From the human T2T-CHM13v2.0 reference genome, Homo sapiens, in the NCBI RefSeq assembly GCF_009914755.1, contig NC_060931.1: a DNA stretch of 64,000 bases, one strand, 5' to 3'. Position 1 is the stretch's first letter, and the number at the start of each line of letters is the position of its first letter. This document shows, piece by piece, positions 18,368 through 59,240 of this stretch. The translations under genes and the position numbers were made by a program. A model generated the notes under the pieces. That model saw only the letters and a list, made by a program, of their open reading frames with translations, ran no database searches and was not told the DNA's origin.

Positions 18368-19303
18368 ATGGAGTTGGAGAACCAGACACGAGTCACCAAG
18401 TTCATTCTGGTGGGATTCCCTGGGAGCTTGAGTATGCGGGCAGCCATGTTTCTGATATTCCTTGTGGCCTATATTCTGACAGTGGCTGAAAACGTGATCA
18501 TCATCCTATTGGTGCTGCAAAATCGGCCACTGCACAAGCCTATGTACTTCTTCCTGGCCAACCTGTCCTTCTTGGAGACCTGGTACATCTCTGTGACTGT
18601 GCCCAAGTTACTGTTTAGTTTTTGGTCTGTGAACAACAGCATCTCTTTCACACTCTGTATGATACAACTGTACTTCTTCATTGCTCTCATGTGCACAGAA
18701 TGTGTGCTTCTGGCCGCCATGGCCTATGACCGGTATGTGGCCATCTGTCGCCCACTCCACTACCCAACCATAATGAGCCATGGGCTCTGCTTCCGCCTCG
18801 CTCTTGGTTCCTGGGCCATTGGCTTTGGCATCTCCCTGGCGAAGATCTACTTCATCTCCTGCCTCAGCTTCTGTGGTCCCAATGTCATCAACCACTTCTT
18901 CTGTGACATCTCTCCAGTACTTAATCTCTCCTGCACAGACATGTCCATAACTGAGTTGGTAGACTTTATCCTGGCACTGGTCATCTTCCTATTCCCACTC
19001 TTTATTACTGTCCTGTCCTACGGATGCATTCTGGCCACCATATTATGCATGCCCACAGGAAAGCAGAAAGCGTTCTCCACTTGTGCCTCCCATCTTGTGG
19101 TGGTCACCATTTTCTATTCAGCCATTATTTTCATGTATGCTCGACCTCGAGTTATCCATGCTTTCAACATGAACAAAATTATTTCCATCTTCTATGCCAT
19201 TGTCACTCCTTCTCTCAACCCTTTCATTTATTGCCTAAGAAACCGAGAGGTCAAGGAAGCTCTGAAGAAACTGGCATATTGCCAGGCCAGCAGATCTGAC
19301 TAG
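18368..19303 (+). CDS. OR6B1: Olfactory receptor 6B1 (class II OR, 7TM GPCR), 311 aa, intact
   Basis: OR motifs [52 protein letters not shown]; N-glycosylation site NQT at 5; family-6 AEN in TM1; sequence [22 protein letters not shown]...CQASRSD recognised as OR6B1. Confidence 0.96.
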
Positions 19304-33560: not shown

Positions 33561-36315
33561 ACTACTTCATTTTGGTTGTGTAAAACCCTCATTTATTTTA
33601 CTTCCCAAGATGAATGGGGAATTTCTAAAATGCTCATGCTAAAAAAACAGAAACAAAACAGAATAAAACCAAACACACACACACACACTCACAACTTCTC
33701 ACACTACTGCTGAATGGAGATAACATAGAGTCCCATCGATCACATCAAGCTCCAGGTCTAAAATAAAATATCAAGCAGTCCTGTTCATATGTGCAGATAA
33801 AATTGTTGGTTTTTTTTTCCTTTTAAAATGTCTTAAACTTGGAAACAGACAAAATAATCTTTGATTGCCTCTTTTTGTTTCTGGGAGGATCTCCTGTTCA
33901 TTGTCTCCCATGGTTACATGTGAGTTACACAACAGGGAAATTTGTTTTTCTAAGCATGCTCTGCTCACCAAGGGCATCTTCACTGGTTTATTTAAGTATT
34001 CAAACTCAAAAGACTCCCGAAGGCCACATTAGCCACCAATGACTCAGAAGGATATCAGATAAGAACAGCTGCTATTTAGTAAGACAATGTCAGGCATTTC
34101 TCTCAGCAGAAGCTTTTGCATCAGCAATCTGTGTACTGGTCCACATAGCCGCCCACAGGCTGTCCTCTTCATAGGTGACAATTTAGATCAAAGGTTGAGA
34201 TTCACATTGGAGGGTGCAGCGATTTTCCTAACTTAAAAGCCACATGATCCATAGGAACCAGTATGTCCTATAAGAACTGCAGGGACATAGATTGCAGGAT
34301 TCTCATAACAGGGACGTGCCCCTTATAAGAATCACCACACACACCAAAAAATTGCCATGCCTATTAGAATAACTATTTATAATTATTTTATTGTTACTCC
34401 AAGTCCAGATGTAACTTAACAATCAAGAGTCCTTTTTTGTTTTGTTTTGTTTTTTCAAAATCATTGTGAACCAACCATACAGTTGACACATTCCATCTTA
34501 GCTAGTTTCCAGGTTAACAGAGTCAAAATCACATAACTAAACAGTCCAGAGCACTTAAATGAAGGTGCTTCCTCGCTGATCTACAAGGGACCATGGTGTT
34601 TTAGAAACCCACTTCTCAGTTCACTTTTAGCATTCTGCAGACACTTTAGAAGTTGAGTTAAGCAGAGGCTATTAGCAATCTGGCGTGGAATTTCTCTGTC
34701 AATACTACCACACATTTCTCTGTCAAAACTCCCACAAATGTATAGTGGGGTTTTATTCTCTTTGGTCCCATCAATTTGGGCTAGTGACCAAAGTGAAATA
34801 CTTGATTCTAAAATTAGGTTTGGGAATTTCTGCATGGCCTAGAAATGGGCCTTCAATGTTCATTCCCCTGTTTCTCTTCAATGACGTACACTTTGTCTTC
34901 TACCCCTGAAAAAGAAGAAATAATGATCCCATGAGGACTCACTAATAAGCTGCACTTGGCCCCGGGGCTGTATGTCTGTGAATAAATGACCTTCTATAAC
35001 AGGAATAACAACTTTGTGTCAGGAATAACATGTATTTCAGAAGTTCCCTGAATGGAGTTACTTTGGGCTACAACTAGAGAGTTTAGCTTTTTTCTTCATG
35101 CCAGCTCAAGACTACCGGGGTCTTTGACAGTTTGGATTGCTGGTTAAAGGCAAAAAAAAAAAAGCTTCATTTGGACAAGGGAGACCTATGTGCCATCCCC
35201 CTCTGCCTTCAGACACTGACAGTCGAAGGTCATTTCTTTCTATCGGAACCACAAGAAGTACTTAATGTACTCTGATAGTCTAAAATTTTCCTATCAAGTC
35301 TATTTTCCTATCTATCCTATCTATCAAGCTAGTTTCATAGTCTGACTCACAAGACAGCATAGGTGGCATTTTAACCAGCTGTTTTGCAAACACGTAATGA
35401 AGATCACTAACGTCCCAGCATGGGAAAGAGACATGCCCACGACCCTCCATCCTATCTCATTGTAGCCGATCTCACCTCTTAGGGCCTCCTTGCCTCACGC
35501 ATCTCTGGTACCAGATTAATTATCAGTTAGGAACCTTTCCAATATAAGTAACAGAAAATTCAGCTCAAAGTGGCTAAAACAATAGACTGTATTCGTTCAC
35601 ATAACTAAACAGTTCTGATGCCACAGGTGAAGAGGCTAACTCACTGATCCTCAGTGCACAAGGTCAGCGGTTACATTCCAGCTGGCTTTCTGTGCTGTGT
35701 ATCATATAAAGGAAGTCCCTCAAGGGCTTGGCCCCTTGCGAGGAGGGGACTCCATGGCTTTTCCTCACTCTTGTGCTGAGTCTTCTCCCTCTGTCTTTAT
35801 TTCTCTTCCCAAAGCCATCCCCCTTATCAAAACTCTCCGCTAAACCCCAGTTCCCCCGCCCACCCCATCTTCCAATTCCTCTTGGTGAAAATGCAGCCCC
35901 TTCTACCGGGAGGTCTTGCTGCTCCTCAGATCTTTTCTTGCCCAAAGCTTCAGCCAGACAAGCCTTAGTATTCACTGCCATTCAATCCCTGAGGATGAAC
36001 GTGGGTTCTCTAATTAAAATTCAATTTTTTTACCAGTGCTAACCTCCAGCCTGCTTGTTCCATTTCTAGATTGCCTGTTAAATAACAACAATTTTCAAAG
36101 AAAAATGTTGACTTTAATCAGAGAAAATACAGGACACTGATTGTTGGGCTCCAGCCATGGCCTTCAATCAGCGGCTATTAGTAAGTGTTTTGAGAGGCAC
36201 CTTTGAATTGGTCTCCCTGGAACTCAATGTCTATTTTATAGACTGTTTGTTTGTTTCAGGATGCATCTAACAAAAATATTTTGACTTAAGGCCACTCTTT
36301 GACAGAAACACAGAC

Positions 36316-51147: not shown

Positions 51148-52029
51148 TGTTTCATTTGCTTTGCTCACTTCCTTTTATTTCTCTTTCACAAGAATCACAG
51201 CTGCATTCAATGGCTCTTCCAAACTTCTCTGGATTCCTGCTCATTTTTCCTCATGATGTTTTTACAACAAATCTTTTGGACATCTAGTCTATCTTGGCAT
51301 TTGCTGCTTGGAGGACCTAGACAAACATTGTAGTTTATTAACTTCAAGCATTCCCATGCCGTAGACTTTAGTTAAAGCTTATAGAAGAATTGAAAGAGCT
51401 GAATATGTTGCCATCAATTTAGTATCTATCAAGAAAGATTCTCTTGTACTAGCCTTTCAATAAAGGTGCCTGAATTGAGTGTGTGTCAAGGGGGTGGTTA
51501 GACTTGGGGTTAAAAACAACTGGGAAAGATATAAGCTAGCAGCATATGTTAAAATCAGAACCGTATTAACTTGAAGAAGTTCTAACTCATATCCTTTACT
51601 CTTATGTCTTCAGTTAATGTTGCCCTGTTTTTGTCTTCCTTGCTGTTTCCAGGGAAAGAATATTCAAGGCATTTGTTTGGATGGTGGAACTAGGGTCTAT
51701 GTGTAGGTCTAGAGATGGCACATGCACCTTCATGCTAAACTCTCCATCAGCAGAAAAGTGGAAAAGACTTTAGAATGAATTTTAATTTCTGGGGCTGTCA
51801 CTTATATGACCTTGGAAGAGTTCTTTAGCTTCGATGAACTTGTCTCTTATTTTATGAACAGGGAGGTAATAAATATTCACTTTTAAACATTTTTTTGAGG
51901 ATTGGTGAAACTGCCTATAAAGGACTTAGCACTGTGCCTAGAATATTGTAGGATATTTGGTCTATTATTTTTGTCTACATGTGTGAATTAGAAAAAAGCC
52001 CAATCTATTGATAAGATGTTTGGATCTCC

Positions 52030-52450
52030 AGTCTCCAAGGAGAGTGTCTCCTCACTCCACTTAAACACCAATGCTGGTGCCCCACAGCTGTGTAACCAGG
52101 ACTTGTTCCCAAAGGCCAAATGCCTGTGGTCTCTGGAGCAGTTGCCTGAAGAGTGCTGCTGCTGTAATTAATTGTGGTAAAGTTTTAATGAACCCCATAA
52201 GGATATTTTTTTCTGACACTTACTTTGTAAAACCTAAAATAGTTTCTATTCCTATGAGATCAATTATAAAGTTTTTTTTTTATCTTTGCCAAGATGCCTG
52301 AGACAACTTTCCAGCTGTGTCTTTTTAATGAGTTCTCCACATGGCTCCTGGGCCATTGGTTCTTCCTACACTGAGACGGCAGGAGCTCCCGGGGAGCAAG
52401 GCATGGAAACTTCTGAGATCCAGAAGATGATTTCCCTGGGAAGGCTCAGA
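52030..52450. promoter_or_regulatory. Candidate olfactory-receptor enhancer (Greek-island type Lhx2/Ebf cluster)
   Basis: Unique sequence with TAATTAATTG (52165), composite TAATGA-A-CCCCATAAGG (52186-52202), reverse composite TAATTG-A-TCTCATAGGA (52250-52266), CTTTTTAATGA (52321-52331) and O/E sites CTCCCGGGGAG (52386) and TTCCCTGGGA (52432). Confidence 0.72.
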
Positions 52451-53974
52451 AGTGCACATTCCTTTCAACTTAGAATCTCTCTAGATTCATTCACAGCCAC
52501 TGAGGGAGGGAGGAAGTGATGGAGAGTACTCCAGAAGGCCTTAATATGTCTCTTATAGATCAGGCCTTTCTCATTAGTTTTATATTTGAGTCTAGACTTT
52601 AGGCCTCTCAGCTCTGTCTTGTTGACTAGCAACTAGAGGAGGTGTACTATAGATCAAATCCTCAATATAGATATGAAAAGCATATCTATACTCTTACTAA
52701 CCCCAACCCCAGACTCAGGCTACCTCTGGTCTTTAATTAACCTGATGGATGTGCCAAATGATCCCTCACTCCCAGGAAATGTGCTTATCCACATACAGGC
52801 CAGTTTGGACATTCAATTGAACGAATTACTCAATTTGTGATGAAAAACATTTAATTTAAGCTACTTTGGAGAAATAAGTTTAGGTCTATAAGGCCAATTT
52901 ATGAAATAGACTGACATTTATTGCTGAAGTAACCAATTCTTTTGAGCTTTCATTCACATTGGTTTTTACACTTACCATCTGTCTGACATCTCAGCAGCAT
53001 TGAGATTAAGGTAATTGAAAAAAGAAGCCAGGGTGGATTCGATTTAATATAGACAGTCCAGTCAGTAGAGGTATTGCCAAGATATATCTGATGGAATTTT
53101 ATAAAGAGGCTTCAGCTCATTATTGAAAGGTAAACAATACTGACACTTATAAAATACTTCCTGGAAAAAAGTAAGCCAGCAAGGTACTAATAGTCAAAAA
53201 AGTTTCCTGGATATGTTAGGCAATTTTGTTTAGATAAATTCAATTTAATTTATATAGGGTGATCAGATGGTCAGAGGTTTTAGAGAGAAAGTTCTTAGAG
53301 TGAAGAATTAGTTAACAGAAATATACAATTTTAGGTGATTATAAGTGGTCTCTTAGAGCAGAGAACATTTATCATACATGTTTATCTCTTTTTCCTCCCC
53401 AGCTACCACTAAAATGGCAAAAAAGCAAAGGTATAATCCACAGAAAAATATAAAATTAGAGGGAAGACAGAAGCAGACCAGAGAAACTGCAGATTTCTTT
53501 TTCAATACAGAAAGGCACAAGGGGAGTAGTAACCAACTTATCAGATAAGAAGCTACCAGCTAACAAGCATGCAAAAGAGAAACCACTTAGAAGCACAGTG
53601 CATTCCTTTCAAGTGTCCCCAGGAAACTTCAGACTAGCAATAGTTGAAAACGAGAATACAAAAAGGGTGAAAACAGGGGTGTAAGCTGAAAGTCTATTAT
53701 TACAGCAGCTGAATCCTCTGACCTCTTTACCACCACCACTCGGTTAGGCAAAAACGTGCCCTAAGCAGGAGCCTAGAGGTTATTCTATGGAAAAATTGAA
53801 GATAAGGCTTAGATTGCAAAATCTTAGAGCAGAAGACAGTGAGGCTTGGGACTGAACTCAGAGAAATCAATAACCAATGTGAAGACCCAGGGAGGAGAGT
53901 ATGCCCCATGATGCTCCCTGCCTCTCAGTCTTTCATACTCAGGTACATTCTCTTCTTTCTCATTTTATAAATTA

Positions 53975-55620: not shown

Positions 55621-58009
55621 AAAAAATTAGTTAAAAATGGAAAAATTAATTGAATCAATCTTTTTAAAGAATAACTTTATAATATTATAATAACTACCTC
55701 TTTATTTTTCAACTTAGCTCTAATGAGAACTCTGCAATATTACTTTATACCCAATTTACAGATGGAAAAACAATTTGGAGATGTTAGTTATCTTGTCCAA
55801 AGCCACAAAGATAATCATCAGTTAAAATTATATTGATTGATAGATTGCCTAGATTATCATGGTAAGTGGCAAACAGCATCAGAAATTTTATGTATAATGT
55901 GAGGTCTATTAAGCTAAAAATATATGAAAATTGGGGAAAAGAAACCACCAAATGTCAACAAATCTACCTTTGAGGTGTGGCCTGATGGGTGAATTTCATT
56001 TTCTTCCATGATGAGCACAGGTGGTATTTTAAAATAAAAGAAAGACAAAAGCATTTTAAAAGTTGTTCTGCATAAGAAGCACTAAGGCCCGTGAAACTCA
56101 ATCAGACAGCAAGACCATCTTTCCATGTGACACTAATGTGCCTCCTAACGCTTCCCAAAGGCAACGTAATAGACATGGAATAGGGCAGTGGTTAACAGCA
56201 TGGAATTTGATGTGCATTTAAGGTTACTTAAGCTCTTGGATTTTTAATTTTCTTATTCATATAAAGTCATTTCATTTTGGGTATGCTGCATGAGAGTATA
56301 TATACAAGGTTCCTGCCACATATCAATAATAGAACCAATGTTTCAATTATGGTTACTAGTAAAGCTTAGAAGGTGGGTGTTGTTTTTCTAGAGATAAATG
56401 TGTACTCAATTCAAGCCTTTCAGATACAGTTAACAACTAAACATATAAAGAATACATCTAAGAAGAATATACAAATTTAAGTTAGATAATTTTTATTTAT
56501 TTCAAGTGAATTCAAAGGGAGGCTGACTGATAAGTAATTCACTGTAATGGATAATTCCAACTCCTCTGTAGTTGTTCAAATACTGAGAACTGAGCAAGAT
56601 ACACCAAATCTCAAACCTCTAAACTCCTCTGAGTGACGAAGAGGAGATATCTTATGGCCTGGAGCCCTTGGGGATATTGAACATTCTGTACGTGGGTCCT
56701 TTCCATATCAGTAATCATTAAATCTTATGATTTGCAACCAGATATCAATCTAGAAAACTGAAGAAAAAACTTGCTTTGAACTCCAGTTTCCAGGCACTCT
56801 TGAATTCTCTTTGACTTATGCCCATTCTAATTATTAAAATATGAAACTCCTCTTACTCTCTTGATCAATGATAAATCAATAATCTTTGATTAATATACAG
56901 GCATTTCAGATTTTTATACAGTTATGCAGGTTGTTGTTAAGAACAGAAAAGACATTTATATTGCTACTTTCCGTGACAATAATGTGTCCAGACTTGAAAA
57001 CATGAAACAACTTAAAAATTAAAAAGCCTTGGGAGTGGTGGCTGCTATCCCACAATAACACTGGGTCACAAATGAGCCCTCCTGGATACGGGTACATGGC
57101 TTATGCCCAGCCAACATTTAATGTGGAATGTTGGTATAAATGTGAGGAATTCAGCATTAGACTTTTGCAAAAGATCTATTGGTTAATTATGTTATTAAAG
57201 ATTAATCTATAAGCTATTTGTCAAGAAAGAGGGAAGGACAAATTAAAATTATATTTTTCTTGAAATGAAGAATCAGGCTACCTGTGAGAGAAGGAATCAC
57301 TGAGTCAGTGGGATTTCTGCCTAAGGTAGCCTACGCATGGTCTCACATTTGTGCCTTCCTAGGGATAGGTAGACTGGGGAGGTAGAGGACATGTGTACAA
57401 AACATTAGTTAACACCGGAGCTTTGGGATCTGAGGCTGCTGATAAGTTTTTGTTGTTGATATTCTGGGTGGGGGTCATTCATTTATTTTTGCTATTTGTT
57501 ATCTCATTACCTCAAATCCCTTGTTTGAGATTCTTCATTAAATTATGATCTCAATTAAATCTGGAAACAATTTACATTCAGAAGAGAGAAGATACCCTGC
57601 TGTGGAGACAGGACGCGAGAGAATATATGGAAGAAAAGTGACAATGAGGAAAGGTTAAAGATAAAAGTAAGAGAGGGAGGTGAGAAGGCAAGCATGCAAA
57701 GAAAACGACAAGGGAGATGGGAGAAAATGATGGAGAAGAAAGAAGTCAAAGGGAGATCAGGAGAAAGAAACAGGATAGAACGTAGGCAGAGGAAGAAGCT
57801 CTGCAACTGAGTTTCTTGCAAGTCATTTTAATAGCAGTGGCAATTCATGAGCAAAAAGATATGAGTACAGTCTGCTTTTCTAAGGCCATAAAAACAAGAT
57901 TTTTAAATAAAAGTGCATATTTCATGAAAAACGTAAAGAAAGTGACTAACATATAATGATCTTGATGTTTTTCAATTAGTCACTATGAAATAAAACTAAG
58001 CATCATTTA

Positions 58010-59240
58010 TTTTTTCACTTATTTATTCAGCAAGTCAATTGAGCATCTAACTACTGTGACAAGCTAGTGGGACTTCAGTATAATGGACAAGCAGACATAG
58101 TCCTTGCCCATAATGAACTTCGCTTCTAGTAGAAGAGGCAAAGAAGCAAATAATGAAAAGACACACAAATTCTAGTTTACTGTATGTGCCGCTCTGCTAG
58201 ATAATAGCAATGTGGTTGGGGGAGGAAGGGATAAGAGCTAATTAAAGTGATAACTCTTGACACAGGGACCAGCATATGTAAAAACACTGATGCTGGAAAT
58301 AGGTTAACGTGACCTAGAATTTGTTCTAGGTTCGGTGTGGCAATGACACACTGATCAAAGATGAGAACAACCGGAGTTATGATTTAAGAAGCAGGGAGGG
58401 CCAGATCATTTAGTGCTTTTAAAGCATTCAAAGGGAATTTGGATTGTACATTGCTCAAAGAGAGGGCACTGAAGATTTCTAAGCAGGAGAGATAATATAC
58501 TATATACTAGTATATACTGTACTACATATACTATATACTAGTATATACTGTACTACATATACTATATACTAGTATATACTGTACTACATATACTATATAC
58601 TAGTATATACTATACTACATATACTATATACTAATATATATTTTACCAGATATACTATACTTTGCATTTTAAAATACTAATAGGATACTTTTATTAGTTT
58701 AGTGGATTTTGTCAAGTTTGCCCAGAATGAAACCTCACAGAGGTTAAGAAAGGCACAGATCAAGTGTTCTCATTTAACCAATAATGATTTTAAGACAAAG
58801 GTTCCATTTATTTCTGTTACTTATAAGATAATTATGTAAATAATAAAACATTATGTATAGTACACTACAGGCTGTGCGGTCCAGAACGGGAACCAAATCT
58901 AAGGTTATACAATAAAATTTTATTTTGTATAGTGAATCTGTATCTGCTTACATCATTCAATTTGGAAATAGTATGAAATATATAAATTATAAATATGAAG
59001 GTCAACCCTCTCTCTTTTTTTATCCATGCACCCCAGGAGACTGTAGATTGTGGTGGTGGCATTAAAGAGCAGGTGAACAGACTTCAACTTTGGAGAGTAA
59101 GATGAATCAAGAATGACTCAGTTTTTCATTTGAGTAACTTGCAGGTGGCAGTGATGCAACTTATCATGATAGGTAAGACAAGGAAAAGAAAATTATGCAT
59201 TCCGTTTTGAATACACTAGCTTCAAGATGCCTGGGTTCTC
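58010..59240 (-). mobile_element. L2 fragments
   Basis: ttattcagcaagtcaattgagcatct..., gagggccagatcatt..., tcaagaatgactcagtttttca. Confidence 0.55.
58495..58640. repeat. 31-bp AT-rich minisatellite (~4.5 copies), each unit with a 16-bp palindrome
   Basis: Unit TATATACTAGTATATACTGTACTACATATAC at 58501, 58532, 58563, 58594 and partial at 58625. Confidence 0.93.

What the first reader, a model, noticed from the sequence alone, without database searches (positions are those of the whole stretch)
52030..52450. Probable human OR 'Greek island' enhancer: dense Lhx2/Ebf composite motifs in repeat-free DNA
Seen in sequence: about 300 bp of unique DNA holds two homeodomain+O/E composites with a 1-bp spacer in opposite orientations (TAATGA-A-CCCCATAAGG 52186-52202; minus-strand TAATTG-A-TCTCATAGGA 52250-52266). 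It also has CTTTTTAATGA (52321), a reverse AACTTTATAATTG (52261-52273), TAATTAATTG (52165), two strong O/E sites (52386, 52432) and two CAGCTG E-boxes. Established: AACTTTTTAATGA is the extended HD motif of the mouse H and P elements, and Lhx2/Ebf composites define Greek islands, which form trans-chromosomal hubs for single-OR choice. Inference: this is the cluster enhancer, ~33 kb from OR6B1 and not attached to any CDS. It may be orthologous to the mouse chr6 island Sfaktiria (orthology from memory, unverified).
Basis: partly seen in the sequence, partly recalled or inferred. Interest (0 to 1): 0.85.

Follow-up and report, generated by a model that had tools for sequence, protein, structure and literature searches.

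The report
Human counterpart of mouse enhancer Sfaktiria
This 280-base stretch between two human smell-receptor genes looks like the human version of a mouse enhancer called Sfaktiria, which helps each olfactory neuron switch on a single receptor gene, though nobody has yet tested whether it is active in human neurons.

Summary
Motif statistics alone are only moderate. The only two tight Lhx2+Ebf composites in 64 kb, and the only such pair in 260 kb of the cluster, lie 47 nt apart here. Two within 100 bp occurred in 0 of 200 shuffles, but that pattern was tightened after seeing the motifs. Homeodomain density is not above chance, no site fits the strict O/E consensus, and a published loose composite pattern does not single the site out.

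The decisive evidence is orthology. A 27-nt piece of mouse Sfaktiria, printed in a paper supplement, matches window 52255-52281 at 25 of 27. This is the only match in the window (0 of 100 shuffles) and in the whole 3.1-Gb human genome (reversed control 0). Two of the three human-mouse differences across the aligned composite and extended homeodomain motif fall in the unspecified NN of the O/E half-site.

Mouse Sfaktiria binds Lhx2 and Ebf, overlaps GERP-constrained sequence, and its deletion abolishes trans contacts. It is an ortholog of a known enhancer and of moderate interest.

The parts
52160..52445 (.). Candidate enhancer core, the proposed human counterpart of mouse Sfaktiria (T2T chr7:145318160-145318445)
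   Evidence: All motifs below fall within it. It is single copy in the window and the genome. GC is 0.40-0.46, against 0.35 to 0.39 in the windows on either side (51700-51999 and 52600-53049). Its size is similar to the 396-bp mouse ChIP peak and the roughly 320-bp GERP block.
52165..52174 (+). TAATTAATTG, overlapping homeodomain cores
52179..52202 (+). AAAGTTTTAATGA (extended-homeodomain-like), then A, then CCCCATAAGG: Lhx2/Ebf composite 1 with a 1-bp spacer
   Evidence: Matches the tight pattern and the published Fuzznuc pattern. It is within 2 mismatches of the H/P 13-mer.
52250..52274 (-). AACTTTATAATTG, then A, then TCTCATAGGA: extended homeodomain motif plus composite 2, pointing towards composite 1
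   Evidence: (the only AACTTTWTAATKR in 260 kb). It is the part shared with mouse Sfaktiria.
52255..52281 (+). 27-nt match (25 of 27) to the printed piece of mouse Sfaktiria, including a T10 run
   Evidence: unique in the window, 0 of 100 shuffles; unique in the 3.1-Gb genome, reversed control 0.
52319..52331 (+). GTCTTTTTAATGA, containing the exact extended homeodomain 11-mer CTTTTTAATGA of the H, P and J-core enhancers
   Evidence: the motif is named in PMC8213819 and PMC7804114. The O/E-like part that follows fails the purine tract, read by eye.
52386..52396 (.). CTCCCGGGGAG, a palindromic O/E-like site with a 1-nt spacer (weak)
   Evidence: It is not among the hits at up to 1 mismatch, nor among the YCCCNNGGGR hits.
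52432..52442 (.). TTCCCTGGGAA, an O/E-like site (1 mismatch to TCCCNNGGGA)
52085..52090 (.). CAGCTG E-box; a second lies at 52312-52317; not distinctive
   Evidence: 19 such sites in the 64 kb.

Best explanation
Window 52160-52445 is the human ortholog of the mouse olfactory-receptor enhancer Sfaktiria, a 'Greek Island'. It lies between genes: 33 kb past the OR6B1 coding sequence and 11 kb before OR2A5 exon 1.

Shown here:
- Sequence identity with a printed piece of the mouse element.
- Two convergent homeodomain + 1 bp + O/E composites 47 nt apart.
- Three extended homeodomain motifs.
- Single-copy status.

Inferred from mouse work: in olfactory sensory neurons LHX2 and EBF sit side by side on the composites and recruit LDB1. 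This keeps the element open inside the H3K9me3-covered receptor cluster. The element joins the multi-chromosome enhancer hub and raises the chance that a nearby receptor gene (OR6B1, OR2A5, OR2A25, OR2F1/2) is the one chosen.
For: Orthology:
- The 27-mer from mouse Sfaktiria matches 25 of 27 at 52255-52281. It is the only hit in the window (0 of 100 shuffles) and in the human genome (control 0).
- By eye against the print, two of the three human-mouse differences across the aligned composite and extended homeodomain motif (52254, 52255) sit in the unspecified NN of the O/E site. The third (52267) sits in the T tract of the extended homeodomain motif.
- The gene lists are collinear in the two species.

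Motifs:
- This is the only pair of tight composites in 64 kb and in 260 kb.
- Both composites fit the published Fuzznuc composite pattern.
- There is an exact CTTTTTAATGA.
- Mouse Sfaktiria has 1 composite scoring above 10 and 3 above 5.

Mouse function:
- Ebf, Lhx2 and H3K9me3 are all 'Yes'.
- It overlaps GERP-constrained sequence.
- It has reporter-mouse support.
- With H, Lipsi and Sfaktiria (0.6 kb) deleted together, the sequences around the deleted enhancers can no longer recruit Greek Islands in trans in Hi-C.
- The triple deletion lowers expression of neighbouring receptors.
- Conserved homeodomain and O/E sites are reported across mammals.

Human context:
- LHX2 is enriched in immature OSNs and EBF1 is expressed in them in human fetal olfactory epithelium.
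- No receptor coding remnant lies nearby.
Against: - Only 27-40 nt of mouse sequence was available; the rest of the element is not aligned.
- No human chromatin, binding or contact data could be consulted.
- The stand-alone O/E sites are weak.
- Homeodomain density is at chance level.
- The tight composite pattern was fixed after seeing the two motifs. With the loose published pattern plus a TAAT core, pairs within 150 bp start at 9 positions (about 7 places) in 260 kb.
- A published motif-and-conservation pipeline that recovered mouse Sfaktiria predicted only chr7:97037911-97038720 in human, not this locus.
- The human copy has A-to-T in the 13-mer core (AACTTTATAATTG against mouse AACTTTTTAATTG).
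Confidence: 0.68

Rival explanations
1. It is orthologous to Sfaktiria but is a decaying relic in humans. The sequence is inherited but no longer binds LHX2/EBF well enough to act as an enhancer.
For: - Weak O/E sites.
- An A-to-T change in the extended homeodomain core.
- The published human scan did not flag it.
- About half of the human receptor repertoire is pseudogenised (passage).
Against: - The specified positions of composite 2 are identical in human and mouse; the differences fall in NN.
- OR6B1 has an intact frame. The hub's RefSeq table lists its neighbours OR2A5, OR2A25 and OR2F1/2 as protein-coding.
- OR6B1 is one of 3 of 781 orthologous groups with strict one-to-one orthology in 13 placental mammals.
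Confidence: 0.2
2. It is a promoter or upstream non-coding exon of a receptor gene (for example an unannotated OR2A5 start), not a distal enhancer. Receptor promoters also carry homeodomain and O/E sites.
For: The P element resembles a nearby promoter (passage). Single tight composites lie near annotated receptor gene starts in the cluster, for example about 200 bp before OR2A14 exon 1.
Against: - RefSeq places the nearest starts 11 kb (OR2A5) and 37 kb (OR6B1) away.
- Mouse Sfaktiria is marked 'Within 500bp of OR TSS? No'.
- Composites are depleted from receptor promoters.
- No coding remnant lies nearby.
Confidence: 0.05
3. It is a chance cluster of AT-rich motifs in neutral DNA.
For: Homeodomain density, E-boxes, near-matches to the 13-mer and the loose composite pattern are all at background level.
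Against: The match to mouse Sfaktiria is unique genome-wide. Two tight composites within 100 bp occurred in 0 of 200 shuffles.
Confidence: 0.03

Closest known systems
Mouse Greek Island Sfaktiria (mm10 chr6:42869730-42870125)
   Same: - 25 of 27 identity over the extended homeodomain, composite and T10 block.
- It sits in the corresponding receptor cluster.
- It is intergenic and similar in size.
- It carries several composites (1 above score 10, 3 above score 5; here two tight and one partial).
   Different: The human copy has AACTTTATAATTG instead of AACTTTTTAATTG, different NN bases in the O/E half-site, and, by eye, a small indel after the T run. Binding, reporter and deletion data exist only for mouse. 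Rat has two copies; human has one.
H and P elements (class II receptor enhancers) and the J-element core (class I)
   Same: It carries the extended homeodomain motif: CTTTTTAATGA exact at 52321, and AAAGTTTTAATGA, which is 1 mismatch from J HD1 AAACTTTTAATGA. It has several homeodomain sites with neighbouring O/E-like sites.
   Different: It is not homologous in sequence to them. A 28-nt piece of mouse H found no human match at up to 3 mismatches, so the Sfaktiria block is conserved more tightly than that piece of H.
Olfactory receptor gene promoters
   Same: Homeodomain and O/E motifs within a few hundred bases.
   Different: Promoters lack juxtaposed composites. This element has two and is 11 kb or more from any annotated start.

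Membership tests
Greek Island enhancer (definition of Monahan et al. 2017) | Intergenic position inside an olfactory receptor gene cluster | tested here: met
   It lies between OR6B1 and OR2A5 in the hub's RefSeq table. tblastn with OR6B1 finds no coding remnant nearby.
Greek Island enhancer (definition of Monahan et al. 2017) | Lhx2 and Ebf co-binding (ChIP-seq) in mature olfactory neurons | not testable with these tools
   No human data were at hand. The mouse ortholog is 'Yes' for both.
Greek Island enhancer (definition of Monahan et al. 2017) | An ATAC-seq peak within flanking H3K9me3 heterochromatin | not testable with these tools
   H3K9me3 is 'Yes' for mouse Sfaktiria. There are no human data.
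Greek Island enhancer (definition of Monahan et al. 2017) | Lhx2/Ebf composite motif (1-bp spacing); present above score 5 in 55 of 63 islands | tested here: inconclusive
   Two sites fit the published Fuzznuc pattern and a tighter Y4-N2-R4 form. The HOMER matrix was not available, so no score was computed. The loose pattern is non-specific.
Greek Island enhancer (definition of Monahan et al. 2017) | Specific trans contacts with other islands (Hi-C) | not testable with these tools
   Shown for mouse, and lost with H, Lipsi and Sfaktiria deleted together.
Ortholog of mouse Sfaktiria | Sequence homology to the mouse element | tested here: met
   25 of 27 over the only mouse stretch in print, and unique in the genome. 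The full-length alignment was not possible.
Ortholog of mouse Sfaktiria | Conserved synteny (same flanking receptor genes) | tested here: inconclusive
   The cluster gene lists are collinear. The pairing Olfr449 = OR6B1 is recalled, not from a call. The mouse gene coordinates flanking 42.87 Mb were not obtained.

The most novel reading that the evidence does not exclude
This is a working human Greek Island. Its convergent pair of LHX2/EBF composites has been held fixed since the human-mouse ancestor, together with OR6B1, one of only three receptor groups with strict one-to-one orthology in placental mammals. That would give a defined, 280-bp human enhancer in which receptor choice, hub formation and their disturbance in disease could be tested directly.
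Probability: 0.55. Interest if true: 0.5.

Novelty: new member of a known kind. Interest (0 to 1): 0.4.

Why it matters
Greek Islands have been defined and tested almost only in mouse. In the texts I could search, the human counterparts appear only as liftOver coordinates in one supplementary table, which I could not open. In the human fetal atlas, Greek Islands are mentioned only as a rodent-based model. A sequence-verified human ortholog with its composite motifs mapped gives a concrete target for human olfactory ATAC, CUT&RUN and Hi-C data and for reporter assays. For a specialist it is expected rather than surprising.

Tried and rejected
- Loose published composite pattern: 262 hits in 64 kb and 1191 in 260 kb; it does not discriminate.
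- First degenerate composite pattern: 3 hits against 1.0 expected, with 8 of 100 shuffles reaching 3. One of them is an isolated site at 34921.
- Homeodomain density test: at chance.
- Mouse H-element 28-mer as a positive control for the cross-species search: no human hit at up to 3 mismatches. The method is therefore specific but not sensitive.
- Full-text search for the composite strings: 13 papers, 12 listed, none on olfaction.
- Markenscoff-Papadimitriou 2014 and Monahan 2019: not held.
- Figs S3 and S4 of PMC8213819 (Sfaktiria alignments): PDF only, unreadable.
Only 260 kb was scanned, and the cluster's distal part was not.
- Bacterial promoter/terminator scan: not applicable to human DNA and ignored.
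- Tandem repeats: none.
- Second loose-composite pair, about 155.6 kb in window coordinates (L019:1601): AT-rich DNA without O/E-like cores, judged by eye; not pursued.

Full report
WHAT IS IN THE SEQUENCE

- TAATTAATTG at 52165-52174.
- TAATGA-A-CCCCATAAGG at 52186-52202 on the plus strand.
- TAATTG-A-TCTCATAGGA at 52250-52266 on the minus strand. It is preceded there by AACTTTA, so the minus strand reads AACTTTATAATTG through 52273.
- CTTTTTAATGA at 52321-52331.
- CAGCTG at 52085 and 52312.

The stretch is single copy in the window and in the whole genome. It holds no tandem repeat. tblastn with OR6B1 finds no receptor-like coding remnant between OR6B1 and the window's end. GC rises to 0.40-0.46 here, against 0.35 to 0.39 in the windows on either side (51700-51999 and 52600-53049).

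IS IT MORE THAN CHANCE?

The answer is mixed.

In favour:
- A tight composite form (TAATKR, one base, four pyrimidines, two free bases, four purines) occurs twice in 64 kb, both times here. The total equals expectation (1.9; 1.7), but two within 100 bp occurred in 0 of 200 shuffles.
- I added 196 kb of flanking cluster DNA, for 260 kb in all, window coordinates -66000 to +194000. That gives 10 tight composites, and this is the only pair within 200 bp. It is also the only AACTTTWTAATKR.
- CTTTTTAATGA is unique in the window; 15 of 100 shuffles had at least one.

Against:
- I fixed the tight form after seeing the two motifs. It follows Monahan's description of pyrimidine and purine runs at fixed spacing.
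- The pattern actually published for composites (PMC11643329 Methods) is very loose. It gives 262 hits in 64 kb against 218.5 expected and 1191 in 260 kb.
- Even when a TAAT core is required, pairs within 150 bp start at 9 positions (about 7 places) in the 260 kb.
- Homeodomain density (5 per 200 bp) is reached in 108 of 200 shuffles.
- Near-matches to the 13-mer AACTTTTTAATGA number 5 against 8.5 expected.
- The 'two strong O/E sites' are overstated. No YCCCNNGGGR lies in 52000-52500.
- 52433-52442 has one mismatch to TCCCNNGGGA.
- By eye (no call scored it), 52387-52396 has two.
- Both read as TCCC-N-GGGA with one spacer base.

ORTHOLOGY, THE DECISIVE EVIDENCE

Monahan et al. 2017 (PMC5608512; passages; Supplementary files 1 and 2 read whole) list Sfaktiria at mm10 chr6:42869730-42870125. 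It is Ebf, Lhx2 and H3K9me3 positive and is not at a receptor gene start. Its best composite score is 10.18, with 1 composite above 10 and 3 above 5.

Degl'Innocenti et al. 2019 (PMC6744719; passages, section 6) report three relevant things:
- Sfaktiria overlaps GERP-constrained elements (chr6:42869789-42870110).
- It is duplicated in rat.
- It is supported by a reporter mouse strain.

A MEME output in that paper's supplement prints a 40-nt piece of mouse Sfaktiria. Its central 27 nt match window 52255-52281 at 25 of 27. That is the only hit in the window at up to 3 mismatches (0 of 100 shuffles). It is also the only hit in the 3.1-Gb human genome at up to 2 mismatches (reversed-pattern control 0).

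Read on the minus strand, by eye, mouse has AACTTTTTAATTG-A-TCTC-CA-A... and human has AACTTTATAATTG-A-TCTC-AT-AGGA. Two of the three differences fall in the unspecified NN of the O/E half-site and one in the T tract. The T10 run is the same length in both species. After it the two sequences align only with a small indel.

The supplement's cluster lists are collinear: Olfr452, 451-ps1, 450, 449, 448, 447 in mouse and OR2F2, OR2F1, OR6B1, OR2A5, OR2A25 in human. The pairing Olfr449 = OR6B1 is recalled and comes from no call.

As a control I searched a 28-nt piece of mouse H from the same print. It found no human match at up to 3 mismatches. So such cross-species hits are not automatic, and the method misses diverged orthologs.

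HOW IT MOST LIKELY WORKS

Shown here: the anatomy and the orthology. The rest is inferred from mouse work:
- Lhx2 and Ebf occupy the composite, whose two sites are 1 bp apart. Inserting 2 bases impairs recognition by a fusion protein, and 5-bp insertions abolish condensate formation with Ldb1 in vitro.
- The Sfaktiria composite was among those assayed by EMSA.
- With H, Lipsi and Sfaktiria (0.6 kb) deleted together, the sequences around the deleted enhancers can no longer recruit Greek Islands in trans in Hi-C (10.1101/287532, passages).
- A triple deletion of H, Lipsi and Sfaktiria mainly lowers neighbouring receptor genes without abolishing them (10.64898/2026.09.23.753647, passages).
- Shah et al. 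2021 (PMC8213819, passages) state that Sfaktiria has conserved homeodomain and O/E sites. Their Figs S3 and S4 are in a PDF I could not read.
- LHX2 is enriched in immature OSNs and EBF1 is expressed in them in human fetal olfactory epithelium (PMC13090377, passages).

The likely target genes are the intact neighbours: OR6B1 (33 kb away), OR2A5 (start 11 kb away), OR2A25 and OR2F1/2. OR6B1 is one of 3 of 781 orthologous groups with strict one-to-one orthology in 13 placental mammals (PMC4158756, passages).

WHAT SPEAKS AGAINST

- Only 27-40 nt of mouse DNA could be compared.
- No human chromatin data were available.
- The stand-alone O/E sites are weak.
- The pipeline that rediscovered mouse Sfaktiria predicted a single human element elsewhere, chr7:97037911-97038720.

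IS IT IN PRINT?

- A search for 'Sfaktiria' found 7 papers. In the passages I opened from five of them, none describes a human counterpart. The bioRxiv preprint of Monahan 2017 was not opened, and in Monahan 2017 itself only 12 of 28 places were shown.
- PMC10088727 (passages) lifted 35 mouse islands to hg38. Of these, 25 mapped and 15 lay within 1 Mb of receptor genes.
- Further searches turned up no functional study of human islands.
- Markenscoff-Papadimitriou 2014 and Monahan 2019 are not held.

VERDICT

This is the human ortholog of a known mouse enhancer: a new member of a known kind, of moderate interest, with clear tests available.

Noticed in passing
window 34920-34936: An isolated strong composite-like site, ATAATGA-T-CCCATGAGG. 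No other homeodomain cluster lies around it.
   Followed up: partly
L017:3436 (window coordinate 137436), L014:7796 (111796), L006:3354 (-32647): Single tight composites (TAATTG-T-CTCTGGAGAG and similar). One lies about 200 bp before OR2A14 exon 1, a look-alike lies within the OR2A12 span, and one lies about 1.8 kb before OR2F1. They are probably promoter-type homeodomain/O-E sites of paralogous genes.
   Followed up: no
window 57954-58160: The second place in the window with 5 homeodomain cores per 200 bp (several ATAATGA). It has no adjoining O/E-like tract and lies about 5.5 kb before OR2A5 exon 1.
   Followed up: partly
whole genome G000: A 28-nt piece of the mouse H element, including its extended homeodomain motif, has no human match at up to 3 mismatches. 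The Sfaktiria piece has exactly one at up to 2.
   Followed up: no
window 18368-19303: OR6B1 reads as an intact 311-residue frame. It is one of three receptor groups with strict one-to-one orthology in 13 placental mammals.
   Followed up: no
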